Shown here: piece by piece, positions 1-43,806 of the stretch
Layout of the letters: each line of letters opens with the position of its first letter
Position numbering within the stretch: position 1 is the stretch's first letter
Source of the DNA: Acidimicrobiales bacterium
Lineage (GTDB): Bacteria > Actinomycetota > Acidimicrobiia > Acidimicrobiales > CATQHL01
Direction: 5' to 3'
NCBI GenBank assembly: GCA_965237375.1
Contig: CBDEFI010000006.1
Coordinates: 418,407-482,406 of the forward strand
Length of the DNA: 64,000 nt
The notes under the pieces: generated by a model
Seen by the model: only the letters and a program-made list of their open reading frames with translations
What the model was told of the DNA's origin: nothing
Databases searched by the model: none
Made by a program: the position numbers and the translations under genes

Positions 1-2
1 CG

Positions 3-893
3 CCCGAGGGACTCGACGGGATCTTCGACGAAGAGTGGTTCCGGCGCCATTCCCAGACCGGCACTTCAGCGCCGGACGCGCTTTCCCGCCCGACACTGTG
101 GGGCGCCGAACTCCAGAGCACACTCAGTTTCGAGGACTACCCGTCATTGGTCGGCGACCCGACCAGGCTGCACGACTGGCTTGTCCAGGTCCGCGACTTC
201 GGGTTCGGGCTCGTGGAGAACGTTCCGACCGCGCCGGGATCGGTCGTCAAGGTGGTGGAACTGTTCGGCTATGTGCGTGAGACGAACTATGGGCAAATAT
301 TCGACGTGCGGGTGGAAGCCGATCCGGCGAACCTGGCGTTCACGAAGCTCGGGATCGGGATGCATACCGACAACCCCTATCGCGACCCGGTTCCTGGCCT
401 CCAGATCATCCATTGTCTCGTCAACGAATCCGACGGCGGAGCCAACCAACTCTGTGATGGTTTTGCAGTCGCGGAGAGGGTCCGCCCGCGTCACCCCGCA
501 GCGTTCGAGCTGCTCACCAGCCATCTCGTCCGATTCCGATTCCTCGAAGGGGGATCAGCCGACCTGCAGTCGCACGTTCCCCTCATCGAGCTGGACGTGA
601 GCGGGAATGTCAGTAGCATTCGCTACAACAGTCGGTCGGTCCAGGCCTTCGACATGCACACCGCCGTCCTGGCCGACTACTACGACGCTTACCGAATACT
701 CGGAGAGTCGTTGCATGACCCGGCGGCGATCATTGAGATCAGGCTGGAGCCCGGCCAGCTCATGATGTTCGACAACCAGCGAGTGCTGCACGGCCGCTCC
801 GTCTATCACCACGGCAAGCGCCACGTTCAGGGGTGCTACGCCGACAAAGACTCGATGCACTCCCGGATCCGGGTCTTGGAGGCGGCGCCATGA
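3..893 (+). CDS. Fe(II)/2-oxoglutarate dioxygenase, gamma-butyrobetaine hydroxylase / TmpA-like (5' end off-window)
   Basis: The frame is open from position 3 (PEGLDGIFDEEWF...), so the gene starts upstream of the window. Motif GIGMHTDNPYRDPVPGLQIIHCL plus ...QRVLHGR is typical of the TauD/BBOX clade. The stop overlaps the next start as ATGA. Confidence 0.8.
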   Translation, partial: PEGLDGIFDEEWFRRHSQTGTSAPDALSRPTLWGAELQSTLSFEDYPSLVGDPTRLHDWLVQVRDFGFGLVENVPTAPGSVVKVVELFGYVRETNYGQIFDVRVEADPANLAFTKLGIGMHTDNPYRDPVPGLQIIHCLVNESDGGANQLCDGFAVAERVRPRHPAAFELLTSHLVRFRFLEGGSADLQSHVPLIELDVSGNVSSIRYNSRSVQAFDMHTAVLADYYDAYRILGESLHDPAAIIEIRLEPGQLMMFDNQRVLHGRSVYHHGKRHVQGCYADKDSMHSRIRVLEAAP

Positions 894-1435
894 GCGCTAT
901 CTGCGAACTTGGGGTTCTGATGGCTGATCGCGGTCGCCATAACTACGGCGAGCAGATCACGATCGCCGAGCACTCTCTTCTGACCGCGGCAGCCGCGGAG
1001 CGTCACGGCGAGCCCGACACCCTCATCGCCGCCTGCCTTCTGCACGATGTCGGTCACTTCCTGGATGAGCCCGACGATGCGTACGGCGTCCACTCCCACG
1101 GTGACCGGGGCGGCGATTGGGCAGCCATTCGGTTTGGTCTCGCCGTTGCCGAACCGGTGCGGATGCACGTGGAGGCCAAGCGCTACCTATGTGCTCGCGA
1201 GCCCCACTATTACGACCGTCTCTCCCCGGCGTCGCAGTACACGCTGACCAAACAGGGCGGACCGATGACCGAGGACGAAGCGAGACAATTCGTCGCCCGT
1301 CCCTATGCCGGCGACTCGTTGCGGCTGCGTCGCTACGAGGACGATTACGGCAAACGGGCCGGAGCGCAGATCCCCATGCTCTCGCATTTTGCGCCCTTGT
1401 TGAAACGCCTGCAGGTCGGGGAGGGCCGACCATGA
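890..1435 (+). CDS. HD-domain metal-dependent oxygenase/phosphohydrolase, PhnZ/TmpB-like
   Basis: ATG at 890 overlaps the upstream TGA (ATGA). Motifs: ITIAEHSLLTAAAAERHG, LLHDVGHF, VRMHVEAKRYL. It sits directly next to a BBOX-like dioxygenase. Confidence 0.75.
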   Translation: MSAICELGVLMADRGRHNYGEQITIAEHSLLTAAAAERHGEPDTLIAACLLHDVGHFLDEPDDAYGVHSHGDRGGDWAAIRFGLAVAEPVRMHVEAKRYLCAREPHYYDRLSPASQYTLTKQGGPMTEDEARQFVARPYAGDSLRLRRYEDDYGKRAGAQIPMLSHFAPLLKRLQVGEGRP

Positions 1436-2205
1436 GCTTGCCGAGAATCCCTATCTACATGCAGATCGTCGACGCCCTGATGGAGCGAATCGAGCAGGGC
1501 GACCCCGCTCCGGGCGACCGGATGGCCCCCGAGCGGACACTGGCTGAAGAGTTCGCCGTGAATCGTCGAACCGTCCGTCAGGCTCTCGACATCCTCGAGC
1601 GACGCGGTCTGGTGGAGAGACGCCGAGGATCGGGAACATTCATCTCCCTGCCACGGCTCGAACGCGACGCAGCCGAGTTTTTTCACTTCACCGAACGGGT
1701 CCGTCAGCGGGGATCCACCGCCGGGTCGCTGGTGTTGAACCTCGAACGGGCGGTGCCGTCGCCGCTCGTCGCCCACGAGCTGGAGCTCTCACCCTTAGCT
1801 GAGATCTATCGGTGTCATCGACTTCGAACGGTGAACGGGCTACCGGTTCTGATCGAGACCTTCGCGCTGCCGGCCGATCTGGTGCCGAACTTCGAATCAT
1901 TCGACTTCGGCGTGAGGTCGGTCTATGAGATCATGCGCGCCGAGTACGGCATCGAGGTCGAGTACGCTCGACAGAGCCTAGAAGCGGTGGCCCTCAGCGA
2001 GATCGAGGCCCAATGGCTGGGCGCCACACCCGGCGCGCCGGCCATGCTCGAACGCCGCCTCGCCTTCGACGACAGGGGGCGACCGGTCGACTTCGGTACG
2101 GACCTCTACCGCGGTGACCGGGTCCGCTTCGTCACCAACGCCGCCACCGAGGCCGCCCCTATCAGCGATGACGGCTTCGCCGCAGACTGGAGGAGGGCCC
2201 GATGA
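1432..2205 (+). CDS. GntR/HutC-family transcriptional regulator (wHTH + UTRA-like C-domain)
   Basis: MSLPRIPIYMQIVDALMERIEQG...PERTLAEEFAVNRRTVRQALDILERRGLVERRRGSGTFI. ATG at 1432 overlaps the upstream stop (ATGA). Confidence 0.85.
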   Translation: MSLPRIPIYMQIVDALMERIEQGDPAPGDRMAPERTLAEEFAVNRRTVRQALDILERRGLVERRRGSGTFISLPRLERDAAEFFHFTERVRQRGSTAGSLVLNLERAVPSPLVAHELELSPLAEIYRCHRLRTVNGLPVLIETFALPADLVPNFESFDFGVRSVYEIMRAEYGIEVEYARQSLEAVALSEIEAQWLGATPGAPAMLERRLAFDDRGRPVDFGTDLYRGDRVRFVTNAATEAAPISDDGFAADWRRAR

Positions 2206-3302
2206 CACAATTGAGCGCGACGGGTCGCAACTACGACGTGTTCAAGGCTGGCGACGAGATGCTCAGACAGGCCTTCGCCAAAGGCGAGGTGCCCGAGCGA
2301 GTGCCCGTGTTCGCCCAACATCACGAGTTTGCGGCCCGACGATTCGGCCTCAAGCACAGCGACTTCTACCGCGATCCAGAATTGTTGGTTCAGGCCCAGC
2401 TCGACACCTGCGCCGACTTCGGCATCAACGTGGCCACCGTCGACTTCGACATCTATAACATCGAAGCCGAGGCAGTCGGCCAGATCATCGTGTTCGATGA
2501 CGACAACATGCCCGACGTCGATCGCAGCCACCCTCTCATCGCCGAACCGCCCGACATCGACGCGCTGGTCACCCCCGACTTCGCCACCTCGGGCCGGTGC
2601 CCCGACATTGTCCGGCTGATGGACATGACAGCCGAGCGCACAGGTGTCACACCACCGATTGCGTTCTGTGCCCCCTTCTCGCTCGCCGCCAACATCCGCG
2701 GCATCGAGGCGCTCATCTTCGACATCTTGCTGAATCCCGACTTCGCGGCCGAGCTCTTCCGGCGAGTGGTCGACAACCTGGTCGCACCATGGATCAGGCA
2801 CCTCATGGATCTGTTCCCCGACGCCACGACAATCTCGGGGGCCGATGCCACCGCCTCGGTGCCGATCCTGTCGCCGACCATGATCGAGGAGTGGGTGATG
2901 CCCTATATCGCCCGCCTCCGCGACGCCACCCACCCCGACCTCAGCGTGCCCAACTGGATCGGCGAAGCCGGGCTGAAAGAACCGCTCGACCTGATGGACC
3001 GCAAGCTCACGGTGACCCAGCACTTCATCGAAGGCCAAGACCCCGACGTCGAGAAACTCGGCCCCGACTACTACGTCGAATACGCCGACCGAAACGATGT
3101 CCCCCTAGTCCTCGGCGTCGGTGCGTCGTTTCTAGCCCTCTCGAGTCCCAGCAAGGTCTTCGACCGTGTGAAGCACTATGTCCGGACCGGCATGCAACAC
3201 GACCGTTTCGCGCTCTTGCTATGCAACCTGGGCGCCACCACCCCCGAAGACAATGTCCGCGCCGCCGTCGCCGCCGTCCACGAACACGGCACGTACCAGT
3301 AG
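2202..3302 (+). CDS. Uroporphyrinogen-decarboxylase-family protein (MtaA/CmuA-type methyltransferase-like)
   Basis: 366 aa. It has a URO-D-like pattern (DFDIYNIEAEAVGQ..., CAPFSLAANIRGIEALIFDIL). The start overlaps the GntR stop (ATGA). Confidence 0.65.
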   Translation: MTQLSATGRNYDVFKAGDEMLRQAFAKGEVPERVPVFAQHHEFAARRFGLKHSDFYRDPELLVQAQLDTCADFGINVATVDFDIYNIEAEAVGQIIVFDDDNMPDVDRSHPLIAEPPDIDALVTPDFATSGRCPDIVRLMDMTAERTGVTPPIAFCAPFSLAANIRGIEALIFDILLNPDFAAELFRRVVDNLVAPWIRHLMDLFPDATTISGADATASVPILSPTMIEEWVMPYIARLRDATHPDLSVPNWIGEAGLKEPLDLMDRKLTVTQHFIEGQDPDVEKLGPDYYVEYADRNDVPLVLGVGASFLALSSPSKVFDRVKHYVRTGMQHDRFALLLCNLGATTPEDNVRAAVAAVHEHGTYQ

Positions 3303-3495
3303 GTTCGAGCGAACAGACCACGCGCCGCCGACGAGTCAGCGCGGTTCGGCGACGCCTTCGGACTGGCGTCGGCGCTGTGGTTCCAGGAGGAGGGGCTCAA
3401 GCCGGTGGAGGAGCCGGGCTGCCTCTGGGACTCAGACGGCGACCAGATGAGATCCTGAGCACACGCGCCACATCAATGAGTTTCATGCTGTTGAG

Positions 3496-3524
3496 TTGCA
3501 AAATGATGTGAATTCTGCTAGCTT
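3496..3524 (+). promoter_or_regulatory. Putative promoter for a leaderless small ORF
   Basis: Local AT-rich patch: TTGCAA (3496-3501), 17-nt spacer, TAGCTT (3519-3524). GTG at 3531 lies 7 nt after the -10 box. Confidence 0.3.
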
Positions 3525-3530
3525 CAAGGC

Positions 3531-3731
3531 GTGGATGCGGACACGGTCACCCAGATAGCCACGGTGGCGCTGGCCGTGCTGGCCATCATCTGGCACCAGC
3601 AGCGATCCACCGACAAGCTGCGCGACAGATTGGACGCATCTGACCGTGAGCACCGAGCCGGGTTGGACGAGGTGAAGCAGCGGTTATCCCGCATCGAGGG
3701 CTTCCTGGGCATCGGCATGCCGCCAACATAG
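3531..3731 (+). CDS. Small hypothetical membrane-anchored protein (one TM helix + coiled-coil tail)
   Basis: 66 aa with a hydrophobic N-terminus (IATVALAVLAIIW) followed by a charged helix. I recognised no family. Confidence 0.4.
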   Translation: MDADTVTQIATVALAVLAIIWHQQRSTDKLRDRLDASDREHRAGLDEVKQRLSRIEGFLGIGMPPT

Positions 3732-3742
3732 GGTCCAACTCC

Positions 3743-3797
3743 ACGAGGGCTCTCCATTCTGAAGGCGGCAGAATCGTCAGAATCGCAGAGCCCTCGT
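3743..3797 (+). terminator. Stem-loop downstream of the small ORF
   Basis: acgagggctct (3743-3753) pairs with agagccctcgt (3787-3797), with an inner attctg/cagaat hairpin. There is no U-tract. Confidence 0.3.
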
Positions 3798-3822
3798 ACC
3801 CCACCGCGGACCTACACCCCGC

Positions 3823-4197
3823 TCAAATCCGAAGAGCCGCTATGGCGCTTCGGAAATTAGCGGGGTGTGATGGTGGCCAAGCGAGCACTGTGCGGACCCG
3901 TTGTCGGGTCCGTCTAGCGGTTTCGGGTTTCGCAGTCCAGATCGGCTCAAGGACGCGCAGCACGTCGGCTTGCTGGATGCGGTGCACGGGCATGGCACCG
4001 AGCACCCCGAACGCGTGACGCTCGAGAGTCTGCATCCACGAGGCGTTGCGCCACCGTGGGCGGTTCGCCTTGTGGACCGCTTCGGCGGCTTGCCGGAAGG
4101 TGGGCGTCGTGCGCCTGCGGCTCTCAGCGAACGGGTCACGCCCCTGCGCAACGGCGCCGCGGTTCTCCATGGCCCTCAATACCTGCGAAAGCACCAT
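3823..4197 (-). pseudogene. Tyrosine integrase fragment (core-binding/SAM-like middle region only)
   Basis: ...TFRQAAEAVHKANRPRWRNASWMQTLERHAFGVLGAMPVHRIQQADVLRVLEPIWTAKPETARRTRQRVRTVLAW matches the P4-type integrase N-proximal domain. Both the arm-binding N-terminus and the catalytic C-terminal domain are absent. Confidence 0.6.
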
Positions 4198-4561
4198 TGA
4201 TGGTCCGAACTCTCGTTTTCGCAAGCTCAGGACCGTCCAGGATAGCCGCGGTGAAGGATGGACTCGTCGGAAACGGTCGGGCGGCGGGTCCGTGAACGGC
4301 GGGGGGCTCCAGAATCGGGTGTAGCACAAACCAACGCGTGGAGGCTCCCGGCGGCGGAGAACCCTACGCGTACCTGTGGGTTGATCGTCGGCCTGGGCGA
4401 GTTCGCCGACCTCGGCTCTGACGGGGCTGTGCGCGCCGGCACTGGTCTGCGCGACAAGCTCAGTGTGAGCGACGGCCACGTCGCCGAGCCGGCTGTCGGC
4501 GAAGTTCCCGGGTACCGCTGCGCCGCTGCCGCAACGGTGGTCTCGACGCGCCTGGTTATCG

Positions 4562-5326: not shown

Positions 5327-5465
5327 CGCTGGTCGCTCCACCGGTGGACGTAGCCGGCGTCCAGCGTCGTCGCGTCGAGGACGGCGAGATGGCCCCGTGG
5401 GTGAGGTGCTTCTGAGTGAATGTCCGCTTTGGGCGGTTTGATTAGCCCACGTTCGGGGTGGGGGG

Positions 5466-6509
5466 TCATGGCTGGGTTGGTTTGTTTTTGCGATGGTAGG
5501 CGATGCGGTCGCGGCGGGCTCGGGTGAGGCCGTCGCGGCGGGCCTGGCGGATGGTGTCGCCACGTCCTTGGTGTTCGTCGTCGGGGGTGACGTAGCGGAG
5601 GGAGGCGTGCAGGCGTCGGGTGTTGTAGTCGTCGCGGACGGTGTCGAGTTCGGTGCGCAGCGTGTTGGGGTCGGTGATTTGTTCGAGGTGGGGCCATTCG
5701 GTTTTGATGTGGCCGAAGAGCGTTTCGATCCATGCTTGGTCAGTCGGGGTGCCGGGGCGGCCGTAGTGCGCGGCGATGGAGCACATGGCGAAGAACTCTC
5801 GTGTGGTGCCGGCGCGCATCTGCGGGCCGTTGTCGGAGAGGGCCAGCAGGATCGGCTCGGCGTCGTCGCTGTTGGCTTGGCGGGCCTCGATGTGTTCCCA
5901 GAGTCCTTCGGCGTCGAGCGCGTCGCAGAAGACGACTTCGACCTGTGTGGCGGTCTCCTCGACGCTGACGAGGGTGGCGAGCCATTTGCGGGTAACGACG
6001 TCCAAGATGGCGTAGGCGACCCGGTTCGCGCGGGGGAAGTGGGTGATGTCATAGATCCAGATCTGGTGGCGTTCCCAGCGCACCCAGTCCGGCATCGGGC
6101 GCGCCGCAGCGGGACTGCGCTGAGGCCGGGCGGGTAGAACGAGCCCTTCACCTGCCAGGGTGCGGTACACCGTCGACGGTGACACCCACACGAGCCCCTC
6201 ATAGGAGGCGCGGTGCGCGAGCTTGCGGTAGCCGCCGTCGATGTCGCCCCACGCGTCGAACAGCTCCAAGATCGCCTGGCGTTCGGCGGGCGTGATGGCG
6301 TGCACAGCGCCGCCGCCGGCGGCGCTGTCGTCGAGGCGGCCAGCCGCCTGGCGGTGCCGCCACCGCCGCCAGCGGCGGGAATCCAACTCCAACACAGCGC
6401 ACGCCCGAGACGCCGCCCAACCCTCGCCCACGGCACCATCGACGAGGTCCAACAAGGCGGCCTTGACACCGGCATCGACACGCGGGGGCACGCCGGCGTT
6501 CACCCCCAA
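5466..6509 (-). CDS. IS3-family transposase OrfB (DDE/rve integrase core)
   Basis: 347 aa: ...WIYDITHF...LSDNGPQM...RPGTPTDQAWIETLFGHIKTEW...YNTRRLHASLRYVTP. It overlaps the orfA 3' end. Confidence 0.9.
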   Translation of the reverse strand: MGVNAGVPPRVDAGVKAALLDLVDGAVGEGWAASRACAVLELDSRRWRRWRHRQAAGRLDDSAAGGGAVHAITPAERQAILELFDAWGDIDGGYRKLAHRASYEGLVWVSPSTVYRTLAGEGLVLPARPQRSPAAARPMPDWVRWERHQIWIYDITHFPRANRVAYAILDVVTRKWLATLVSVEETATQVEVVFCDALDAEGLWEHIEARQANSDDAEPILLALSDNGPQMRAGTTREFFAMCSIAAHYGRPGTPTDQAWIETLFGHIKTEWPHLEQITDPNTLRTELDTVRDDYNTRRLHASLRYVTPDDEHQGRGDTIRQARRDGLTRARRDRIAYHRKNKPTQP

Positions 6510-6841
6510 CGCTCTTTTCCCTCCAACAACGTGACCTTCACCGCCATCTCCTTGAGCGCCTCACCCAGCCGCGCCACCTCACCGCGGGCCATTGCCAACT
6601 CGGGATCCTCACCGCCCGCGCGCACCCCCGGCCGCGACGACGCCAACGCCTCCAGGGCGCCCCGCTTGGCCACCTCGCGGGCCTTCATGATCGTCGAACG
6701 ATCCACCCCCCAATGATCCGCGCACGCAGCGACGGTCATCTCACCGGTCAGCACCTGCACGAACGCCTCATACTTCTCCGCCGGCGACAAGAACCGCCGA
6801 CGGCGCCTGCCACGCTCACCGGACTTCGAAGAACTGCTCAT
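6500..6841 (-). CDS. IS3-family transposase OrfA (HTH)
   Basis: 113 aa: RRRRFLSPAEKYEAFVQVLTGEMTVAACADHWGVDRSTIMKAREV, followed by a leucine-zipper-like tail. Confidence 0.9.
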   Translation of the reverse strand: MSSSSKSGERGRRRRRFLSPAEKYEAFVQVLTGEMTVAACADHWGVDRSTIMKAREVAKRGALEALASSRPGVRAGGEDPELAMARGEVARLGEALKEMAVKVTLLEGKERWG

Positions 6842-7939
6842 CTGACGCTCCCTTCACAACGCCACGCTCCCACCCCCAATGTGGGCTAATCAACCACCCA
6901 AAACCGGACACGAACTCAGAACCAGAACAGGGGAGGTTGCGGATGTTGGTGAGGGTGGTGTGGAAGGTGGGCGCCCAGGGCCAGTGGGCGGGTAGGCGCA
7001 AGATGGTGCGTCCGGCGTGGTTGACGAGGCGTCCGGGGAGGGCGAGGAGTTGGTTGCGGACGGTTTGCCCGGCGGTGAGTCGGCCGCGGCGGTTGGGGGT
7101 GTGGTGGTTGATCCAGCGGTAGAGGTTGTGGGCCAGGGTGGCGCAGGTCAGCCAGGCGGCGTTGGCGGCGAAGCGTCCCGACGGCAGGTGGGCGAGGCCG
7201 GTGGAGTTCTTGAGGTCGCGAATGGCGAGTTCGACGGTGGCGTGTTGGCGGTGGAACACGTCGGCGGCGACGGTGTCAGATGTGGTGTTGGTGACGAAGG
7301 CGTGGTAGCGCCAGTCGGGCCATAACGCCGCTTGTGTTTCGTCGGTGAGGCGGCTGCGGCGCACCACGAGGCGCAGCTTGCGCCCCTCGCCGCGGGCGCC
7401 GGCGACGAGGGTGGTCGCCGCCACGTGCGCTTCGCCGCCGAGCCGATAGTCGATCGGCGTCCAGTCCGCGTCGGCAATGGCATCAATGGCGGCTTTGACG
7501 TGGGCGTACAGCGGCATCGTGATCGACCAGCGCACCTTGAGGCGCTCCAGAGTGTCGAGGAGGTCATAGGACCAGAACCCCGCGTCGGCGCGCACGGTCA
7601 GTTCGCCGGTCGCGCCGGCGCGTCGGGCGCGGTGGACGGTTTCGGCGACGAAATGGGCGTTGCCGCTCTGGCCGACCCCTTGCGCAGGCGGGCATGCAGC
7701 ACCTCGCCGGTCTCGCCGCGGGTCGCCACCAACGGGCAATAGCCCAACTCGGCGGTGTAGCCGTAGGCGGCGCCGGCCTTGGCCTTGCCGACCACTTCAC
7801 AGATCGTCGAGTCCACGTCGATGGTCATCGCATCCTCCCCGGGGCCGCCGATGACCAACCACGCCGCGCGCAGCACCTCGCCGGCCGCCTTGTCCAACTG
7901 AGGTGTGTCTGAGTCTTCCGCGGAGATTGGGGTTGGTAA

Positions 7940-9327: not shown

Positions 9328-9920
9328 CTGATGCTCCTTCGCATATCAGCGAGAAGACCACCAAACTAGGTTAATTATTCAACACCATCTCCGCGGTGAA
9401 CTCAGACGCAGCACACAACTGGCGGACGTGACCCCACGTGAACGAACGCAGGAACGTCCCCAACGTCGACGGCGCCATCACCGTGAACCCCAACACCCGC
9501 CGCGTCGCGCCGGCGCGCAACCGATTCGCGTGATCGATGTGCGTCGCGCCCACCAGCATCGCCGCCACCAACGTCACCACCTTGCGACCCGGACCCGCCC
9601 CACCCGGGCGCCCCGACAGGCACACCACACGGTCAACGATCGCCGCCACACCCAACCGGCTCAGCAGCGTGCCCGCCACCAACAAGCCCGCATCGGCCAC
9701 CAACGACTCGTCGTCGAAAACCACCCCGAACCGATCAATCTTGCGCGATACTTCACTCACAGGAAGTGCCTCCCGAACTCGGGCCGTAGCCGCTGTTGCT
9801 AACGGCTATTCTCCCAGGTCAGCGAGGCACTTCCGCGCACCCCTAGCCCCCACAGACCAGACCCCACCGGTGGATCCAGGCTTAGTTCCTGCTATGGGGC
9901 TATCAGTCTCTGATCGGCTC

Positions 9921-15303: not shown

Positions 15304-16995
15304 CTAGCTATCTCTGGGAAATCTGGCGCTGGTAGTGCCTTCAGTTGTTGAGAGGCTGCTTGCTTCATTGTCGTGATTGACGGCGGTGACCGCGACAGTG
15401 TATGTGGTGCCGAATCGGAGGTTCGGGCTGGTATGTGATGTGCCGGTCGTCCTGTAGAGCCTGCTCTGCCATGGCGGAATATCGCCAATGGCGGGGCGGG
15501 AATACCGCACTAGGTAGTGATCGATCGTCGCACTCCCCGAATCCGACGGCGGCGACCAAGTGACCACAATCTGCCTCACACCGTGCGCCGCCGCGCTCAC
15601 ATTCCGCGGTGACGATGGCAACTCGGCAGGTGGTGTTGTCACGGAGCTAGTGGCCTCGGGACCTGAACCGAATGCGTTCTCAGCGACCACCCGCATCGTA
15701 TAAGTGGTATCAGTACGCGGATTCCTTACCGCAAACCCGCGATCGCTCGCCGACAGAAAGTAAGGACCGAATATCCGCCCGGGTCGTGAGATCGTCAGTG
15801 TATAGCCGGTAGTCGGCGATCCGCCGTCGCCCAAAGGCGGTGACCAAGAGGCAATAACTCGATCTCCATCCGTCGACCTGTCGAACTCAAAACGGGCGTT
15901 CAATGGATTATCGGCGTCGACCGACTCGCCAATCGTGAGCGGCAGTGCTTCATCGGTCGAATCATCAGGGGTGCCGGTCGTCGTGCAGCTGTTCGGCGCG
16001 ACCGCCAGATTGACCTCGTTGTTCCTGATCCGCAGACTGCTGGAGGCGATCTGGCAGGTAGCGCCGGCGTCGTTCACGAACGTGGCGGACAAGTCATATT
16101 CGCAGATGTCATTGACCACCAGGGGGATCTCGACGGGTTCGTCCACGACGGTCCACGACATCGAGCCGCTCGCCCCGCTGGTGCTGATGCCCGGGTCGCA
16201 ACCATGCCGCGTCTGCCAAGACACCGTATAGACACCAGCAACCGTGTCGGTCCTGATAATGATGACCTGCCTGGTGCCGGTAGGGGTGCCGGTCCCCGTG
16301 GGGGTGCCAGTAGGAGTGCAGCTGTTCGGCTCGACCACCAGATCGACCTCGTTGTTGCTGATCCGCAGACTGCTGGGGGAGATCCGGCAAGCGGCGCCGG
16401 CAGCGTTCTCAAACGTGGCGGACAAGTCGTATTCGCAGGTGTCATTGACCACCAGGGGGATCTCGACGGGTTGGCCCACGACGATCCGCCACATTGAGCC
16501 GCTCGCCCCGCTGGTGCTGATGCCCGGGTCGCAACCATGCCGCGTCCGCCAAGACACCCAGTAGGAACCAGCAACCGTGTCGGTCCTGATCGTGATGACC
16601 TGACTGGTGCCAGTAGGAGTGCAGCTGTTCGGCTCGACCACCAGATTGACCTTGTCGTTGCTGATCCGCAGACTGCTGGGGGAGATCCGGCAAGCCGCGC
16701 CGGCGGCGTTCAGGAACGTGGCGGACAAGTCGTATTCGCAGATGTCATTGACCACCAGCGGGATCTCGACGGGTTCGTCCACGACGGTCCACGACATCGA
16801 GCCGCTCGCCCCGCTGGTGCTGATGCCCGGGTCGCAACCATGCCGCGTCTGCCAAGACACCGTATAGACACCAGCGACCGTGTCGCTCCTGACAATGATG
16901 ACCTTCAGATCGGCGGCGGCTGGACTCGAGGCCAGCACCACGGCCGCACCAAGCAGACCGGCGACAGACACGACGCCGAAGACGAACTTTCTCAT
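15304..16995 (-). CDS. Secreted protein: three tandem ~110-aa Cys-containing repeats + two fibronectin type III-like domains
   Basis: Signal peptide MRKFVFGVVSVAGLLGAAVVLASSPAAA. It has 3x (TVAG.Y.VSW.TRHGCDPGISTSGASGSM...VEIPLVVND.CEYDLSATF.NAAGA.C.I..SSLRI.N..V.L.V.PNSCT). FN3-like motifs are GGSPTTGYTLT and SGSATIDHYLVRY...YTVAVTAVN. Confidence 0.75.
   Translation of the reverse strand: MRKFVFGVVSVAGLLGAAVVLASSPAAADLKVIIVRSDTVAGVYTVSWQTRHGCDPGISTSGASGSMSWTVVDEPVEIPLVVNDICEYDLSATFLNAAGAACRISPSSLRISNDKVNLVVEPNSCTPTGTSQVITIRTDTVAGSYWVSWRTRHGCDPGISTSGASGSMWRIVVGQPVEIPLVVNDTCEYDLSATFENAAGAACRISPSSLRISNNEVDLVVEPNSCTPTGTPTGTGTPTGTRQVIIIRTDTVAGVYTVSWQTRHGCDPGISTSGASGSMSWTVVDEPVEIPLVVNDICEYDLSATFVNDAGATCQIASSSLRIRNNEVNLAVAPNSCTTTGTPDDSTDEALPLTIGESVDADNPLNARFEFDRSTDGDRVIASWSPPLGDGGSPTTGYTLTISRPGRIFGPYFLSASDRGFAVRNPRTDTTYTMRVVAENAFGSGPEATSSVTTPPAELPSSPRNVSAAAHGVRQIVVTWSPPSDSGSATIDHYLVRYSRPAIGDIPPWQSRLYRTTGTSHTSPNLRFGTTYTVAVTAVNHDNEASSLSTTEGTTSARFPRDS
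15890..16905 (-). repeat. Three tandem ~330-bp coding repeats inside 15304-16995
   Basis: Nucleotide-level similarity produces repeated off-frame ORFs, for example 16109-16390 versus 16442-16693. Confidence 0.8.
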
Positions 16996-17172: not shown

Positions 17173-17879
17173 TCAAGTGCGGGTTGTGAGGGTGGCGAGG
17201 TCGGCTCGGAGGGTGCGGTAGAGCTCGCGGGGCGACGAAGCGTTTGAGGCAGCGGATGACTTCTTTCTTGGTCTTGCCTTCGGCGAGGCGGCGGTCCATG
17301 TAGCCGCGAGTTCGTTCGCAGTAGCGCAATCGGACGAGGACGATCATGTGCAGGGCTCGGTTGGCTGCGCGGTTGCCTGGGTAGTTGAGCCGGTGACGGC
17401 TGGTGCGCCCGCTCGACGCGGGGACCGGCGCGGTTGCGCACAGGTGAGCGAAGGACGCCTCGGAGCCGAGCCGGTCGATGTTCTCGCCCGCGGCGACGAG
17501 CAGGGTCGCGGTGTGGTGAGTGCCGCATCCGAGACGGGACACCGTCGAGGGCGCCGCGGCGGCGACCAGCCGGTCGAGCCGGCGCTCCAGATCGGCGGCC
17601 TCGGAGCCGAGCCGGGCGATGCGACGCCCCAGACTGCGCAACGCCGTCTTGGCGGCCTGGGCGGGATCGGCGAGGCGGTCGGTGTCGGGGCGCAGTCGGG
17701 CGCACACGGCAGCCTTGGCCTCGAGGGTCCGACGGCCGTCGAGCTGGTGGCGCAACGCGGCAGGGGCCGTGACGAGCAGGTCGCCGAGCTGGCACAACGC
17801 GGCGGCGCGGGCCTTGATAGCGCTGTTTCGGGCGACGCTGAGCTGGCGGATCGCCTCGACGATTCCGGTGGTGTCCTTA
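17173..17879 (-). pseudogene. IS110-family transposase, C-terminal half (truncated by IS1380 copy B, plus a frameshift)
   Basis: ...AIRQLSVARNSAIKARAAALCQLGDLLV...LGCGTHHTATLLVAAGENIDRLGSEASFAHLCATAPVPASSGRTSRHRLNYPGNRAANRALHMIV...KTKKEVIRCLKRFVA. An extra C near 17232 breaks ...RELYRTLRADL...*. The DEDD N-domain is missing. Confidence 0.8.
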
Positions 17880-19310
17880 GCCTGGATCCACCGGTGGGGT
17901 CTGGTCTGTGGGGGCTAGGGGTGCGCGGAAGTGCCTCGCTGACCTGGGAGAATAGCCGTTAGCAACAGCGGCTACGGCCCGAGTTCGGGAGGCACTTCCT
18001 GTGAGTGAAGTATCGCGCAAGATTGATCGGTTCGGGGTGGTTTTCGACGACGAGTCGTTGGTGGCCGATGCGGGCTTGTTGGCGGCGGGCACGCTGCTGA
18101 GCCGGTTGGGTGTGGCGGCGATCGTTGACCGTGTGGTGTGCCTGTCGGGGCGCGCGGGTGGGGCGGGTCCGGGTCGCAAGGTGGTGACGTTGGTGGCGGC
18201 GATGCTGGTGGGCGCGACGCACATCGATCACGCGAATCGGTTGCGCGCCGGCGCGACGCGGCGGGTGTTGGGGTTCACGGTGATGGCGCCGTCGACGTTG
18301 GGGACGTTCCTGCGTTCGTTCACGTGGGGTCACGTCCGCCAGTTGGACAAGGCGGCCGGCGAGGTGCTGCGCGCGGCGTGGTTGGTCAGCGGCGGCCCCG
18401 GGGAGGATGCGATGACCATCGACGTGGACTCGACGATCTGTGAAGTGGTCGGCAAGGCGAAGGCCGGCGCCGCCTACGGCTACACCGCCGAGTTGGGCTA
18501 TTGCCCGTTGGTGGCGACCCGCGGCGAGACCGGCGAGGTGCTGCATGCCCGCCTGCGCAAGGGGTCGGCCAGAGCGGCAACGCCCATTTCGTCGCCGAAA
18601 CCGTCCACCGCGCCCGACGCGCCGGCGCGACCGGCGAACTGACCGTGCGCGCCGACGCGGGGTTCTGGTCCTATGACCTCCTCGACACTCTGGAGCGCCT
18701 CAAGGTGCGCTGGTCGATCACGATGCCGCTGTACGCCCACGTCAAAGCCGCCATTGATGCCATTGCCGACGCGGACTGGACGCCGATCGACTATCGGCTC
18801 GGCGGCGAAGCGCACGTGGCGGCGACCACCCTCGTCGCCGGCGCCCGCGGCGAGGGGCGCAAGCTGCGCCTCGTGGTGCGCCGCAGCCGCCTCACCGACG
18901 AAACACAAGCGGCGTTATGGCCCGACTGGCGCTACCACGCCTTCGTCACCAACACCACATCTGACACCGTCGCCGCCGACGTGTTCCACCGCCAACACGC
19001 CACCGTCGAACTCGCCATTCGCGACCTCAAGAACTCCACCGGCCTCGCCCACCTGCCGTCGGGACGCTTCGCCGCCAACGCCGCCTGGCTGACCTGCGCC
19101 ACCCTGGCCCACAACCTCTACCGCTGGATCAACCACCACACCCCCAACCGCCGCGGCCGACTCACCGCCGGGCAAACCGTCCGCAACCAACTCCTCGCCC
19201 TCCCCGGACGCCTCGTCAACCACGCCGGACGCACCATCTTGCGCCTACCCGCCCACTGGCCCTGGGCGCCCACCTTCCACACCACCCTCACCAACATCCG
19301 CAACCTCCCC
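17880..19310 (+). mobile_element. IS1380-family element, copy B (abutted at its 3' end by IS3 type 1)
   Basis: Same sequence as copy A but without the nested IS3 type 2. The junction with IS3 type 1 (…caacctcccc|tgttctgg…) is identical in both copies. Confidence 0.8.
18001..19310 (+). pseudogene. IS1380-family transposase with an internal frameshift (~18560)
   Basis: ORFs 18001-18642 and 18501-19424 join into one IS1380-type protein only after a frame change following LHARLRKGSA. The C-terminal read-through enters IS3. Confidence 0.8.
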
Positions 19311-19398
19311 TGTTCTGGTTCTGAGTTCGTGTCCGGTTTTGGGTGGTTGATTAGCCCACATTGGGGGTGGGAGCGTGGCGTTGTGAAGGGAGCGTCAG

Positions 19399-19740
19399 AT
19401 GAGCAGTTCTTCGAAGTCCGGTGAGCGTGGCAGGCGCCGTCGGCGGTTCTTGTCGCCGGCGGAGAAGTATGAGGCGTTCGTGCAGGTGCTGACCGGTGAG
19501 ATGACCGTCGCTGCGTGCGCGGATCATTGGGGGGTGGATCGTTCGACGATCATGAAGGCCCGCGAGGTGGCCAAGCGGGGCGCCCTGGAGGCGTTGGCGT
19601 CGTCGCGGCCGGGGGTGCGCGCGGGCGGTGAGGATCCCGAGTTGGCAATGGCCCGCGGTGAGGTGGCGCGGCTGGGTGAGGCGCTCAAGGAGATGGCGGT
19701 GAAGGTCACGTTGTTGGAGGGAAAAGAGCGTTGGGGGTGA
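19399..19740 (+). CDS. IS3-family transposase OrfA
   Basis: Identical to the 6500-6841 product. Confidence 0.9.
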   Translation: MSSSSKSGERGRRRRRFLSPAEKYEAFVQVLTGEMTVAACADHWGVDRSTIMKAREVAKRGALEALASSRPGVRAGGEDPELAMARGEVARLGEALKEMAVKVTLLEGKERWG

Positions 19741-20774
19741 ACGCCGGCGTGCCCCCGCGTGTCGATGCCGGTGTCAAGGCCGCCTTGTTGGACCTCGTCG
19801 ATGGTGCCGTGGGCGAGGGTTGGGCGGCGTCTCGGGCGTGCGCTGTGTTGGAGTTGGATTCCCGCCGCTGGCGGCGGTGGCGGCACCGCCAGGCGGCCGG
19901 CCGCCTCGACGACAGCGCCGCCGGCGGCGGCGCTGTGCACGCCATCACGCCCGCCGAGCAGCAGGCGATCTTGGAGCTGTTCGACGCGTGGGGCGACATC
20001 GACGGCGGCTACCGCAAGCTCGCGCACCGCGCCTCCTATGAGGGGCTCGTGTGGGTGTCACCGTCGACGGTGTACCGCACCCTGGCAGGTCAGGGCCTTG
20101 TCCTACCCGCCCGGCCTCAGCGCAGTCCCGCTGCGGCGCGCCCGATGCCGGACTGGGTGCGCTGGGAACGCCACCAGATCTGGATCTATGACATCACCCA
20201 CTTCCCCCGCGCGAACCAGGTCGCCTACGCCATCTTGGACGTCGTTACCCGCAAATGGCTCGCCACCCTCGTCAGCGTCGAGGAGACCGCCACACAGGTC
20301 GAAGTCGTCTTCTGCGACGCGCTCGACGCCGAAGGACTCTGGGAACACATCGAGGCCCGCCAAGCCAACAGCGACGACGCCGAGCCGATCCTGCTGGCCA
20401 TGAGCGACAACGGCCCTCAAATGCGCGCCGGCACCACACGAGAGTTCTTCGCCATGTGCTCCATCGCCGCGCACTACGGCCGCCCCGGCACCCCGACTGA
20501 CCAAGCATGGATCGAAACGCTCTTCGGCCACATCAAAACCGAATGGCCCCACCTCGAACAAATCACCGACCCCAACACGCTGCGCACCGAACTCGACACC
20601 GTCCGCGACGACTACAACACCCGACGCCTGCACGCCTCCCTCCGCTACGTCACCCCCGACGACGAACACCAAGGACGTGGCGACACCATCCGCCAGGCCC
20701 GCCGCGACGGCCTCACCCGAGCCCGCCGCGACCGCATCGCCTACCATCGCAAAAACAAACCAACCCAGCCATGA
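19731..20774 (+). CDS. IS3-family transposase OrfB
   Basis: 347 aa, near-identical to the 5466-6509 product. Confidence 0.9.
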   Translation: MGVNAGVPPRVDAGVKAALLDLVDGAVGEGWAASRACAVLELDSRRWRRWRHRQAAGRLDDSAAGGGAVHAITPAEQQAILELFDAWGDIDGGYRKLAHRASYEGLVWVSPSTVYRTLAGQGLVLPARPQRSPAAARPMPDWVRWERHQIWIYDITHFPRANQVAYAILDVVTRKWLATLVSVEETATQVEVVFCDALDAEGLWEHIEARQANSDDAEPILLAMSDNGPQMRAGTTREFFAMCSIAAHYGRPGTPTDQAWIETLFGHIKTEWPHLEQITDPNTLRTELDTVRDDYNTRRLHASLRYVTPDDEHQGRGDTIRQARRDGLTRARRDRIAYHRKNKPTQP

Positions 20775-21107
20775 CCCCCCACCCCGAACGTGGGCTAATC
20801 AAACCGCCCAAAGCGGACATTCACTCAGAAGCACCTCACGTTCAGGGGGCGGTACGCCTAAGTTGCCGCCAGGTTGTTGGCGTCGGCCAGAATCCGTAGT
20901 CGATGACGGTGATGACCTCGCAGTCGGTGCTCATGTCGGCCCAGGCATCGGCACGGCCCATGCCGCCAAGGTGACGGACCAGTGATCCTCCCCGGGTCTT
21001 GCGCAGGCTGTGGTGTGCCCCGTGTTCCGCGCGGTCGGAGGTGAGCCCCGGGTTTCGCGCGGTCAGGTCATTTGATCGGTGGCGGAGGCGAGGGCACCCC
21101 TGAGACG

Positions 21108-35609: not shown

Positions 35610-35694
35610 GCGCCAGTGGCGGAATCTGGCAGACGTGCAGGGTTTAGGTCCCTGTGAGCTTCGGCTCGTGTGGGTTCGAATCCCACCTGGCGCA
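35610..35694 (+). tRNA. tRNA-Leu (anticodon TAG), class II with long variable arm
   Basis: Acceptor GCGCCAG/CTGGCGC+A. D region GTGGCGGAATCTGGCAGAC. Anticodon stem-loop CAGGG-TTTAGGT-CCCTG. Variable arm TGAGCTTCGGCTCGT. T arm GTGGGTTCGAATCCCAC. CCA is not encoded. Confidence 0.9.
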
Positions 35695-43324: not shown

Positions 43325-43708
43325 GGGGCTGATCGGTTTCGACGTCGAGACCGGGAACCGTGCTACGCGACCGGAGTTGCTCAGACTCCAAAAACGGGGC
43401 ACCAAAGACACGGCAATGATGAACCCGTGCTCCTCGCCGCCTGATCACCTGATCGGACAGTGAGGTAACTGCGACCCCTACGGGGGCACGCGGGGCCCGT
43501 CCGCTGCAGCCTGGCAACAGAAGCAGGGGAGGACAGCAGGGAAAGACCGCTGACGGTGGGAAAGACCGCTGACATCGGAGAAAGATCCGACGGAGCCCTC
43601 ACGGGCAACCGACCCGGCGGTGAGCAACCCGCAAAGCTGTAACCGGGAATGGTCGTATCGGAGACGGCAACCGCTCGACGGACGGGGGTTCGATTCCCCC
43701 CAGCTCCA
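43325..43708 (+). ncRNA. ssrA: tmRNA (SsrA)
   Basis: The 5' GGGGCTGATCGGTTTCGAC pairs with the 3' ...GGACGGGGGTTCGATTCCCCCCAGCTCCA (tRNA-Ala-like acceptor and T arm). The tag ORF is GGC AAT GAT GAA CCC GTG CTC CTC GCC GCC TGA (43412-43444), giving GNDEPVLLAA. It lies downstream of smpB. Confidence 0.9.
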
Positions 43709-43806
43709 CTTTGGGCTCTTAGCGAGTTAGGGCTCGCTGAGTTGTCCAGTTATGCGTTGGCGCGCCGGTTCGGCGCTGGTTTGGGCTGTTTGCGCGCGTT
43801 GGGGGG

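What the first reader, a model, noticed from the sequence alone, without database searches (positions are those of the whole stretch)
3..3302. TmpA/TmpB-like phosphonate-oxygenase pair coupled to a GntR regulator and a URO-D-family methyltransferase
A BBOX-like 2OG dioxygenase directly followed by a PhnZ-like HD oxygenase matches the two-step oxidative C-P cleavage logic of PhnY*/PhnZ and TmpA/TmpB. TmpA was long misannotated as gamma-butyrobetaine hydroxylase. Here all four genes are translationally coupled by three consecutive ATGA overlaps. The fourth gene is a URO-D/MtaA-like protein, which has no role in the described pathway. If the substrate is trimethyl-aminoethylphosphonate, the product is glycine betaine. 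A methyltransferase-like enzyme could then link C-P cleavage to betaine demethylation. No corrinoid protein or transporter is visible in the window, and the operon's 5' side is off-window.
Basis: partly seen in the sequence, partly recalled or inferred. Interest (0 to 1): 0.55.

Follow-up and report, generated by a model that had tools for sequence, protein, structure and literature searches.

The report
TmpA/TmpB-like phosphonate operon with URO-D-fold partner
This is a four-gene operon from a marine-type actinobacterium that most likely breaks the carbon-phosphorus bond of a choline-like phosphonate, and it carries a conserved fourth enzyme of unknown role that is absent from the published two-gene version.

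Summary
Window 3-3302 holds four co-directional genes joined by three ATGA overlaps, each preceded by GGAGG.

- **Gene 1** is cut by the window edge. It sits on the TmpA side of the TmpA/BBOX split. The 99%-identical full-length copy scores 281 bits against the TmpA structure and 140 against human BBOX. The NCBIfam TmpA score is 389.6, just under the cut-off of 400.
- **Gene 2** keeps the di-iron H..HD..H..H..(E/D) ligand set and is nearer TmpB than PhnZ.
- **Gene 3** is a HutC-type GntR regulator. Related loci carry a conserved operator palindrome, ATTGGT(A/C)TA(T/G)ACCAAT, upstream of gene 1. That site lies off-window.
- **Gene 4** has a URO-D fold closest to MtaA. It lacks the HxC zinc motif and fails the MtaA/CmuA score cut-off. 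Relatives are fused to B12-binding domains or sit beside MttB.

The gene order recurs in at least five other lineages. One of them carries a 28%-identical URO-D-fold protein in the same fourth slot. Neighbours there are glycine-betaine catabolic genes and an ABC transporter. Canonical alphaproteobacterial tmpAB has neither the GntR regulator nor the URO-D gene.

Verdict: a new variant of a known pathway. Gene 4's chemistry is unresolved.

The parts
3..893 (+). Gene 1, 5'-truncated by the window edge: TmpA-like Fe(II)/2-oxoglutarate dioxygenase, residues 73-368 of 368.
   Evidence: Pfam TauD 142 bits. NCBIfam TmpA 346 bits for the fragment and 389.6 (cut-off 400) for the 99%-identical full-length copy in L001; BBOX scores 335. 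PDB TmpA 6NPB 281 bits against human BBOX 140. The H-x-D..H iron ligands, the 2OG arginine, cage residues Y and F, and N187/R288 equivalents are conserved. N287 is Ser and the third cage Tyr is Phe.
890..1435 (+). Gene 2: PhnZ/TmpB-like HD-domain di-iron oxygenase, 181 aa.
   Evidence: Pfam HD. NCBIfam Phn-HD 177 bits (cut-off 214.6) and TmpB 145 (cut-off 300). PDB TmpB 6NPA 118 bits, PhnZ 90. Ligands H28, H52-D53, an H in HSHGD, an H in MHVEAKRYL, and E/D in RRYEDD are present. The loop is Y-G-E, one residue shorter than Y-x-G-E.
1432..2205 (+). Gene 3: HutC-subfamily GntR regulator (wHTH + UTRA), 257 aa.
   Evidence: Pfam GntR 70 bits and UTRA 123 bits. Best NCBIfam hits are PhnR (136 bits) and PhnF (118 bits), both below cut-off. 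Its probable operator palindrome is conserved upstream of gene 1 in related loci and lies off-window.
2202..3302 (+). Gene 4: URO-D-fold protein of a distinct zinc-motif-less clade, 366 aa.
   Evidence: Pfam URO-D 94 bits. No PDB sequence hit for the single sequence. AF2 model pLDDT 94.4. Foldseek best match is MtaA 4AY7/4AY8 with TM 0.75-0.81, then UroDs. The family has invariant NW.GE where MtaA is expected to have HxC. Relatives P0266 and P0303 are fused to B12-binding domains.
890..893 (+). ATGA overlap between gene 1 stop and gene 2 start, with GGAGG at 878-882.
   Evidence: Read directly.
1432..1435 (+). ATGA overlap between gene 2 stop and gene 3 start, with GGAGG at 1420-1424.
   Evidence: Read directly.
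2202..2205 (+). ATGA overlap between gene 3 stop and gene 4 start, with GGAGGAGG at 2189-2196.
   Evidence: Read directly.

Best explanation
This is an autoregulated catabolic operon of a Ca. Aldehydirespirator-like bacterium (Acidimicrobiales).

Gene 1 is a 2-oxoglutarate/Fe(II) dioxygenase of a sister clade to TmpA. It would hydroxylate C1 of 2-(trimethylammonio)ethylphosphonate or a very close N-methylated analogue. Gene 2 is a mixed-valent di-iron HD oxygenase of the PhnZ/TmpB kind. It would then cleave the C-P bond oxidatively to give phosphate and glycine betaine. Both steps are inferred by homology.

Gene 3 is a HutC-type GntR repressor. It probably binds the 16-bp palindrome ATTGGT(A/C)TA(T/G)ACCAAT upstream of gene 1 and releases it on binding a pathway metabolite. 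This is inferred from the conserved site.

Gene 4 is a conserved, selected, translationally coupled URO-D-fold enzyme. My most likely reading is a zinc-independent methyltransferase that works with a corrinoid carrier encoded elsewhere. It would act on the trimethylammonium group of the product or the substrate, which would feed the methyl groups into C1 metabolism. This last step is the weakest and is purely inferential.
For: - **Gene identity and coupling:**
- **TmpA side rather than BBOX:** PDB 281 against 140 bits. NCBIfam 389.6 against 335 bits. The NJ tree places the clade as sister to PGAP/JGI-named TmpA and away from human BBOX and a BKACE-linked BBOX-like paralogue.
- **Substrate-pocket residues:** the iron triad, 2OG Arg, cage Y/F, N187 and R288 are conserved. 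The R-x-N-x-R-S motif is shared with TmpA and not with BBOX (residue roles from PMC9296572).
- **HD ligands:** the H..HD..H..H..(E/D) set is present (motif from PMC8177086).
- **Conserved module:** found in L007/L013, L009, L021, L022 and L028/L027, with dN/dS of 0.13-0.31.
- **Fourth-gene swap:** L028 genes 1-3 are 68-78% identical to the window, but its fourth gene is a 28%-identical URO-D-fold protein in the same overlapping slot.
- **Betaine-catabolism context:** L028 has MttB, MTHFR, DMGDH, ETF, a GMC oxidoreductase and an SBP5 ABC transporter. L009 has Rieske oxygenases, GCV_T, DMGDH, GFA and a BHMT-like gene. L004 has a DMGDH-like gene directly upstream.
- **Operator:**
- **Gene 4 as methyltransferase:** the best structural neighbour is MtaA. 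P0266 and P0303 are relatives fused to B12-binding domains and keep the family motifs. L015 has an MttB / Met_synt_B12 / gene-4-family operon. Zinc-free URO-D-fold methyltransferases exist, such as CdmB (PMC13222342).
Against: - Gene 1 and its orthologues score just below the TmpA equivalog cut-off. Gene 2 is well below the TmpB and Phn-HD cut-offs.
- The clade has N287 changed to S/T/C, a variable third cage residue (F/N/D) and a shortened Y-G-E loop. The substrate may therefore differ from TMAEP.
- No corrinoid-binding or pterin-binding protein was found in the window or in any fetched locus, and no cobalamin riboswitch either.
- Related loci already encode other betaine demethylases, which makes a betaine role for gene 4 partly redundant.
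- Wider gene-4 family members sit with HAD, PHP and DHH phosphoesterases rather than with methyltransferase partners.
- Some strain copies of the module are decayed.
- The tree is neighbour-joining without support values.
Confidence: 0.6

Rival explanations
1. The oxygenase pair acts on a related but different phosphonate. Candidates are a partly N-methylated, longer or carboxylated quaternary aminophosphonate. The URO-D-fold protein would process that compound or its product directly, for example as a cofactor-free decarboxylase in the manner of UroD, rather than transferring methyl groups.
For: Scores are sub-threshold against the TmpA and TmpB equivalogs. Clade-specific changes affect a phosphonate-binding Asn, one cage position and the Y-x-x-E loop. 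Gene 4 keeps the Asp that aligns with the catalytic Asp of UroD. No corrinoid protein is nearby.
Against: The other pocket residues match TmpA. Neighbouring genes in related loci are those expected for glycine betaine catabolism. The hhalign match to HemE is weak at 49% probability, and the UroD His339 equivalent is Ala. Relatives of gene 4 are fused to B12-binding domains.
Confidence: 0.2
2. The URO-D gene is a passenger with an unrelated job, such as the haem-pathway HemE or a general housekeeping enzyme, and is only physically linked to the regulator.
For: Sources annotate it as uroporphyrinogen decarboxylase. In L007, hemN-like, ferrochelatase and HemY-like genes lie 3.5-7 kb downstream. 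L020 keeps GntR + URO-D without intact oxygenase genes.
Against: No HemE equivalog hit appears in NCBIfam. Only weak MtaA-type hits were returned. The overlapping fourth position is conserved in at least five lineages and is even refilled by a remote URO-D-fold paralogue. Purifying selection is as strong as on the oxygenases. The UroD His is missing.
Confidence: 0.05
3. Gene 1 is a true gamma-butyrobetaine hydroxylase of carnitine metabolism, and gene 2 is an ordinary HD phosphohydrolase.
For: JGI names several homologues gamma-butyrobetaine dioxygenase. The BBOX model still scores 335 bits.
Against: The TmpA structure and model score higher. Two Arg residues are shared with TmpA and absent from BBOX. 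The tree separates the clade from BBOX and from the BKACE-linked paralogue in L021. Gene 2 carries the six-ligand oxygenase motif and the PhnZ/TmpB substrate motifs.
Confidence: 0.03
4. In this particular lineage the locus is a decaying remnant in an IS-ridden genome and no longer works as a pathway. This is not exclusive of the other readings.
For: In sister strains gene 1 has an internal deletion (L006, L012) and gene 4 a frameshift (L005). The upstream DMGDH-like gene is split by an IS110 (L004). IS elements separate the operator from gene 1 in L005. The window itself is full of IS copies.
Against: In the window, genes 2-4 are intact and the visible 296 codons of gene 1 are uninterrupted. 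Four other contigs carry a fully intact module.
Confidence: 0.15

Closest known systems
TmpA/TmpB of Leisingera caerulea (TMAEP to (R)-1-hydroxy-TMAEP to glycine betaine + phosphate; PDB 6NPB, 6NPA)
   Same: Same two protein families in the same order with overlapping genes. They are the best hits among solved structures. The iron ligands, 2OG Arg, two cage aromatics, N187 and R288 are conserved, and so is the HD di-iron ligand set.
   Different: Gene 1's clade is a sister group, seen in Actinomycetota, Acidimicrobiales and Acidobacteriota MAGs, with PGAP/JGI-named TmpA first appearing at 49% identity or less. Scores are below the equivalog cut-offs. N287 is S/T/C, the third cage residue varies, and the loop is Y-G-E. 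The operon adds a HutC-type regulator and a URO-D-fold gene. A canonical alphaproteobacterial locus has only a divergent LysR plus the two genes.
PhnY*/PhnZ (2-aminoethylphosphonate to glycine + phosphate; PDB 4MLM)
   Same: The same two-step logic of hydroxylation followed by HD-oxygenase C-P cleavage. The HD motifs are shared.
   Different: Gene 1 is BBOX/TmpA-like with an aromatic cage. Gene 2 scores lower against PhnZ (90 bits) than against TmpB (118 bits).
MtaA / CmuA / CdmB: corrinoid-dependent methyltransferases with a URO-D fold
   Same: Same fold, with MtaA as the best structural match (TM 0.75-0.81). C341 aligns with an MtaA Cys. Relatives of gene 4 have the CmuA-like architecture of URO-D plus a B12-binding domain. 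CdmB shows that zinc is dispensable in this fold (PMC13222342).
   Different: Only 19-20% identity. TIGR01463 scores 47 bits against a cut-off of 235. There is no H-x-C motif. The family signature is acid- and aromatic-rich (DxDxY.xEAEA, DATAS, NW.GE, QDPD). No corrinoid protein is adjacent, and the host is a probably aerobic actinobacterium.
PhnF/PhnR HutC-family regulators of phosphonate operons
   Same: GntR wHTH + UTRA architecture with best NCBIfam hits to PhnR and PhnF. The operator is a palindrome of the GT-N-TA-N-AC kind that I recall as typical of HutC-family regulators.
   Different: Scores are far below both equivalog cut-offs. The gene lies inside the operon, between the oxygenases and the URO-D gene.

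Membership tests
TmpA (NCBIfam NF049936, 2-trimethylaminoethylphosphonate dioxygenase) | Score at or above the curated equivalog cut-off of 400 bits | tested here: not met
   389.6 bits for the full-length 99%-identical copy in L001. Orthologues in L007 and L009 score 387.5 and 390.3. It is still the best-scoring family.
TmpA | Fe(II) facial triad H-x-D...H and the 2OG-binding Arg | tested here: met
   HTD, RVLHGR and RH(V/L)QG are conserved in the window gene and across the whole clade.
TmpA | Aromatic cage for the trimethylammonium group | tested here: inconclusive
   The Y and F of RETNYG..F are conserved. The third position is Y in L. caerulea TmpA and F in the window gene. A PGAP-named TmpA also has F there. 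The position is N or D in some clade members.
TmpA | Phosphonate binders N187, N287 and R288 (PMC9296572) | tested here: inconclusive
   N187 and R288 are conserved. N287 is replaced by S, or by T/C in some clade members.
TmpA | Hydroxylates TMAEP at C1 | not testable with these tools
   Requires an enzyme assay.
TmpB / PhnZ (HD-domain mixed-valent di-iron oxygenases) | H...HD...H...H...D di-iron ligand set | tested here: met
   All five histidine/aspartate positions align. The last ligand falls in an invariant E-D pair next to a 1-residue insertion, so it is either E or D.
TmpB / PhnZ | Y-x-x-E substrate-gating loop (PMC8177086) | tested here: not met
   The loop is Y-G-E, one residue shorter, in the window gene, all module orthologues and the fusion protein. 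The Glu stays in register with the first His.
TmpB / PhnZ | NCBIfam cut-offs (TmpB 300, Phn-HD 214.6) | tested here: not met
   145 and 177 bits respectively.
HutC subfamily of GntR regulators | N-terminal GntR wHTH plus C-terminal UTRA domain | tested here: met
   70 and 123 bits, both above the Pfam cut-offs.
MtaA/CmuA methyltransferases (TIGR01463) | Family score cut-off of 235 bits, and the H-x-C...C zinc site that I recall for the thiol-methylating members | tested here: not met
   The score is 47 bits. The family has an invariant N-W-x-G-E at the strand where I expect the H-x-C motif. That placement rests on my recollection of MtaA, because the MtaA residues there could not be aligned. 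Only the C-terminal Cys (C341) aligns with an MtaA Cys.
MtaA/CmuA methyltransferases | URO-D TIM-barrel fold and partnership with a corrinoid domain or protein | tested here: inconclusive
   The fold requirement is met. Corrinoid domains are fused to 32-36%-identical relatives, and an MttB/Met_synt_B12 operon holds a 51% relative. None was found near this gene or its orthologues.
Uroporphyrinogen decarboxylase (HemE/UROD) | Catalytic Asp, substrate-binding Arg pair and the C-terminal His | tested here: not met
   D83 aligns with the HemE Asp, but the His equivalent is Ala. The N-terminal Arg motif region could not be aligned, and hhalign probability is only 49%. No HemE equivalog appears among the NCBIfam hits.

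The most novel reading that the evidence does not exclude
The gene 4 family would be a previously uncharacterised, zinc-free branch of the URO-D/MtaA superfamily that removes methyl groups from trimethylammonium compounds such as glycine betaine, TMAEP or choline. This would occur in largely aerobic Acidimicrobiia and other bacteria. It would be a fold-independent counterpart of the MttB-family enzyme MtgB and would make this operon a three-enzyme route from a phosphonate straight into C1 metabolism.
Probability: 0.3. Interest if true: 0.7.

Novelty: new variant of a known kind. Interest (0 to 1): 0.48.

Why it matters
Oxidative C-P cleavage by PhnY*/PhnZ-type pairs is one of the few known routes by which marine microbes recycle phosphonates. 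The TMAEP branch has been described from one alphaproteobacterium as a two-gene operon.

This locus shows that a sister clade of both enzymes is spread through Acidimicrobiia and relatives. That group includes a family with sponge symbionts. Here the pair comes packaged with its own repressor and operator and with a conserved third enzyme.

If that enzyme acts on the trimethylammonium group, the operon would link phosphorus scavenging to methyl-group and betaine metabolism, and it would define a new activity in the URO-D fold. The operator motif also offers a direct way to map the regulon, including its transporters.

Tried and rejected
- **Exact look-up of gene 4** found nothing. The window allele differs slightly from the recorded ones.
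- **Genome and metagenome scans** with the gene 4 subfamily returned only 3 and 5 loci. Context statistics are therefore anecdotal.
- **The original TmpA/TmpB paper** is not held in the library. Residue roles were taken from two later papers instead.
- **A literature search** for URO-D together with phosphonate and PhnZ found no paper. The mlp gene-cluster paper on MtaA homologues concerns anoxic sulfur/selenium metabolism and is not relevant.
- **An attempt to align the MtaA H-x-C region** with a C-terminal sub-profile gave only noise. The statement that the motif is missing therefore rests on the family's invariant NW.GE and on my recollection of where H-x-C lies in MtaA.
- **The long URO-D-like protein of L028** has no PDB sequence match.
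- **Promoter and terminator scans** of 1-4200 found nothing above shuffles.
- **The operator motif** is absent from the window, as expected, because the window starts inside gene 1.
- **HemE and BBOX readings** were considered and rejected (see rivals).


Full report
**1. What is in the window**

Window 3-3302 carries four + strand genes.
- Gene 1 (3-893) runs off the 5' edge. The window holds residues 73-368 of a 368-aa protein, whose full length is seen in a 99%-identical copy (L001 8898-10004).
- Gene 2 is 890-1435, gene 3 is 1432-2205 and gene 4 is 2202-3302.
- The three junctions are ATGA overlaps at 890-893, 1432-1435 and 2202-2205. Each is preceded by GGAGG 5-7 nt upstream.
- Pfam gives TauD, HD, GntR+UTRA and URO-D.

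**2. Origin**

The block from window 1 to about 3724 is 99% identical to seven metagenome contigs. The part from 835 to 3626 also matches the chromosome of a Candidatus Aldehydirespirator sp. MAG (Acidimicrobiales). That family includes free-living and sponge-symbiotic lineages (PMC11706023).

The flanks differ between contigs and are full of transposases. Some copies are damaged:
- gene 1 has an internal deletion in L006 and L012;
- gene 4 has a frameshift in L005;
- the upstream DMGDH-like gene is split by an IS110 in L004.

The window copy is intact as far as it can be seen.

**3. Genes 1 and 2**

Gene 1.
- Against solved structures, full-length gene 1 scores 281 bits with L. caerulea TmpA and 140 with human BBOX.
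- Against NCBIfam it scores 389.6 for TmpA (cut-off 400) and 335 for BBOX (cut-off 414.75). Two orthologues give the same pattern.
- In a neighbour-joining tree (no support values), the clade is sister to sequences that PGAP and JGI name TmpA. It is separate from human BBOX and from a BBOX-like paralogue that sits next to a BKACE gene in L021.
- The iron triad, the 2OG arginine, two cage aromatics, and the N187 and R288 phosphonate binders are conserved. The motif R-(F/Y)-N-x-R-S is shared with TmpA where BBOX has N-F-N-N-A-T (residue roles from PMC9296572).
- Clade-specific differences are N287 changed to S/T/C and a variable third cage position.

Gene 2.
- It scores 118 bits with TmpB and 90 with PhnZ.
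- It keeps H..HD..H..H..(E/D) and the AKRYL, LS.AS and QGGPM motifs.
- Its gating loop is Y-G-E rather than Y-x-G-E (PMC8177086).

Neither is met. Strict membership of the TmpA and TmpB equivalogs is not met either. I therefore call the pair TmpA/TmpB-like, with TMAEP or a very close analogue as the likely substrate.

**4. The regulator and its operator**

Gene 3 is a HutC-type GntR protein whose best family hits are PhnR and PhnF. A 16-bp palindrome, ATTGGT(A/C)TA(T/G)ACCAAT, lies just upstream of gene 1 in L001-L004, L007, L009, L021 and L028. It also lies before the stub operon in L020. L007 has a second copy directly before an MgtC-family gene. In the window's lineage the site lies 338 nt before window position 1, so it is off-window, and no copy occurs in the 64 kb. 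An autoregulated operon is the natural reading.

**5. Is the fourth gene really part of it?**

Yes, on several lines of evidence.
- The order TauD-HD-GntR-URO-D, with overlapping junctions, recurs in:
  - an Acidimicrobiales MAG (L007/L013; gene 4 is 78% identical);
  - L009 (67%);
  - L021 (64%);
  - L022 (cut by the contig end);
  - in degenerate form, L020.
- All four genes have dN/dS of 0.13-0.31. Gene 4 is the best conserved of the four in the two most distant comparisons.
- In L028 and L027, genes 1-3 are 68-78% identical to the window. Their fourth, overlapping gene is a 437-441-aa protein only 28% identical to gene 4, with a sub-threshold Pfam URO-D match. The slot has been refilled with a remote member of the same fold. 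This argues for a required activity rather than a passenger gene.
- By contrast, a canonical alphaproteobacterial locus (Aliiroseovarius plasmid) has only a divergent LysR gene plus TauD and HD.

**6. What gene 4 is**

Fold and motifs.
- The single sequence has no PDB hit.
- A confident model (pLDDT 94.4) is closest to M. mazei MtaA (TM 0.75-0.81, 19-20% identity), then to UroDs.
- A family profile finds MtaA at E = 3.6e-6 and CdmB weakly. Gene 4 C341 aligns with an MtaA Cys.
- Against E. coli HemE, the catalytic Asp aligns with D83, but the C-terminal His is Ala and the match is weak.
- NCBIfam lists only MtaA-type families, far below cut-off, and no HemE.
- The family has an invariant N-W-x-G-E where I expect the MtaA H-x-C zinc motif. 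Its signature is rich in acidic and aromatic residues. I could not align the MtaA residues there directly.
- Zinc-free URO-D-fold methyltransferases do exist (CdmB; PMC13222342).

Family size and relatives.
- The family is modest in size: 63 clusters at E <= 1e-30 among 1.84 billion representatives.
- Two relatives (P0266 and P0303, 32-36% identical) are fused to B12-binding domains in the CmuA manner and keep the family motifs.
- On contig L015, a 51% relative follows an MttB-family gene and a Met_synt_B12 domain protein.
- Other relatives sit with HAD (once fused), PHP and DHH phosphoesterases, a choline-sulfatase-like gene and Opp-type ABC transporters. The L028 binding protein is 54% identical to the one in L014.
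- No corrinoid or pterin domain, and no cobalamin riboswitch, was found in the window or in any fetched locus.

**7. Context and the betaine link**
- In L028 the operon is flanked upstream by Flavin_Reduct, DUF1638, a 513-aa MttB-family protein, MTHFR, an 839-aa DMGDH, ETF alpha and beta, and a GMC oxidoreductase.
- Downstream in L028 lie an SBP5/Opp-type ABC transporter, an Exo_endo_phos protein and a HAD.
- L009 has two Rieske oxygenases, GCV_T, DMGDH, GFA, an alcohol dehydrogenase, and a BHMT-like gene behind a SAM riboswitch.
- In L021 the operon is followed by a BBOX-like gene and a BKACE.
- In the window's own lineage, a DMGDH-like gene lies directly upstream.

These are the genes expected if glycine betaine is the product. 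Aerobic MttB-based betaine demethylation has recently been shown (PMC12478193).

**8. Verdict**

The most likely picture is an autoregulated TMAEP-type phosphonate operon:
- hydroxylation by gene 1;
- oxidative C-P cleavage by gene 2 to phosphate and glycine betaine;
- control by gene 3 at a conserved palindrome;
- a third enzyme, gene 4, which is probably a zinc-independent methyltransferase using a corrinoid carrier encoded elsewhere and acting on the trimethylammonium group.

The first three points rest on homology, conserved residues and conserved context. The last is inference from fold, fusions and one operon.

No description of this four-gene arrangement was found in the searched literature, but the library lacks many journals. 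I rate it a new variant of a known kind and of moderate interest.

Noticed in passing
L002 721-3483 (-) and L003 206-2557 (-), about 5 kb upstream of the module in two strains; off-window: A single protein fuses an alkaline-phosphatase-superfamily/Phosphodiest domain, a PhnZ-like HD domain and a TmpA-like TauD domain. About 90 clusters of such proteins, roughly 770 aa long, exist. They come mostly from Acidimicrobiia, including Ilumatobacteraceae and the sponge symbiont Ca. Poriferisodalis, and are named only 'TauD/TfdA family' or 'HD domain' protein. One polypeptide might both release a phosphonate head group from an ester and cleave it. This may be more novel than the finding itself.
   Followed up: partly
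window 5401-7900 and 18340-20839; also 9416-9885 and 17876-18345: Two 2.5-kb copies, 99% identical and in inverted orientation, bracket about 10.4 kb. They encode transposase/integrase ORFs. A second inverted pair of 470 nt lies inside them. The arrangement looks like a composite-transposon or inversion structure.
   Followed up: partly
window 41619-43196: At least eight detected in-register copies of a 111-nt (37-codon) tandem period, 67-71% alike, lie inside long ORFs. They end just before a tmRNA gene at 43325-43711.
   Followed up: no
window 15968-16903: Three direct repeats of about 300-333 nt (89-92% identical) lie inside the 563-aa ORF at 15304-16995 on the minus strand.
   Followed up: no
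window 29829/53961, 31703/58787, 27097/60534: Dispersed direct repeat pairs (95%, 99% and 87% identical) are spaced 24-33 kb apart. They could be further IS copies or a segmental duplication. A tRNA lies at 35610-35694.
   Followed up: no
L007 4843-4856 and 4861-5532; L027 13790-14437: An MgtC/SapB-family membrane protein has its own copy of the operator palindrome in L007. A 47-49% identical homologue follows the URO-D-like gene in L027. It may belong to the regulon.
   Followed up: partly
L006, L012, L005, L004 (sister copies of the module): The module is decaying in some strains. Gene 1 has an internal deletion (residues 173 to about 350). Gene 4 has a frameshift. An IS110 sits inside the upstream DMGDH-like gene. 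IS elements lie between the operator and gene 1.
   Followed up: partly
L023 8001-9851 (P0019); L014 7920-11107: A HAD hydrolase is fused to a gene-4-family URO-D domain in P0019. The order PHP, HAD, URO-D recurs next to Opp-type ABC transporters in a Chloroflexota MAG. A choline-sulfatase-like gene lies nearby in L023.
   Followed up: partly
L030 9866-11200 (Leisingera plasmids): Leisingera is the genus in which TmpA/TmpB were characterised. It carries a 444-aa 'uroporphyrinogen decarboxylase family protein' that is 45% identical to the long URO-D-like protein of L028. There it sits next to a gene annotated as a PLP-dependent aminotransferase family protein, which may be a MocR-type regulator, and not next to tmpAB.
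   Followed up: partly
L009 778-856 (-) and 3-713 (-): A SAM_alpha riboswitch (39 bits, gathering score 36) precedes a gene resembling the MetH homocysteine-binding domain or BHMT. It lies a few kb from the module.
   Followed up: no
L021 11220-13272: A second GBBH-like TauD gene, on the BBOX-like branch, and a BKACE gene directly follow the four-gene module. This suggests carnitine or gamma-butyrobetaine catabolism next to the phosphonate operon.
   Followed up: no
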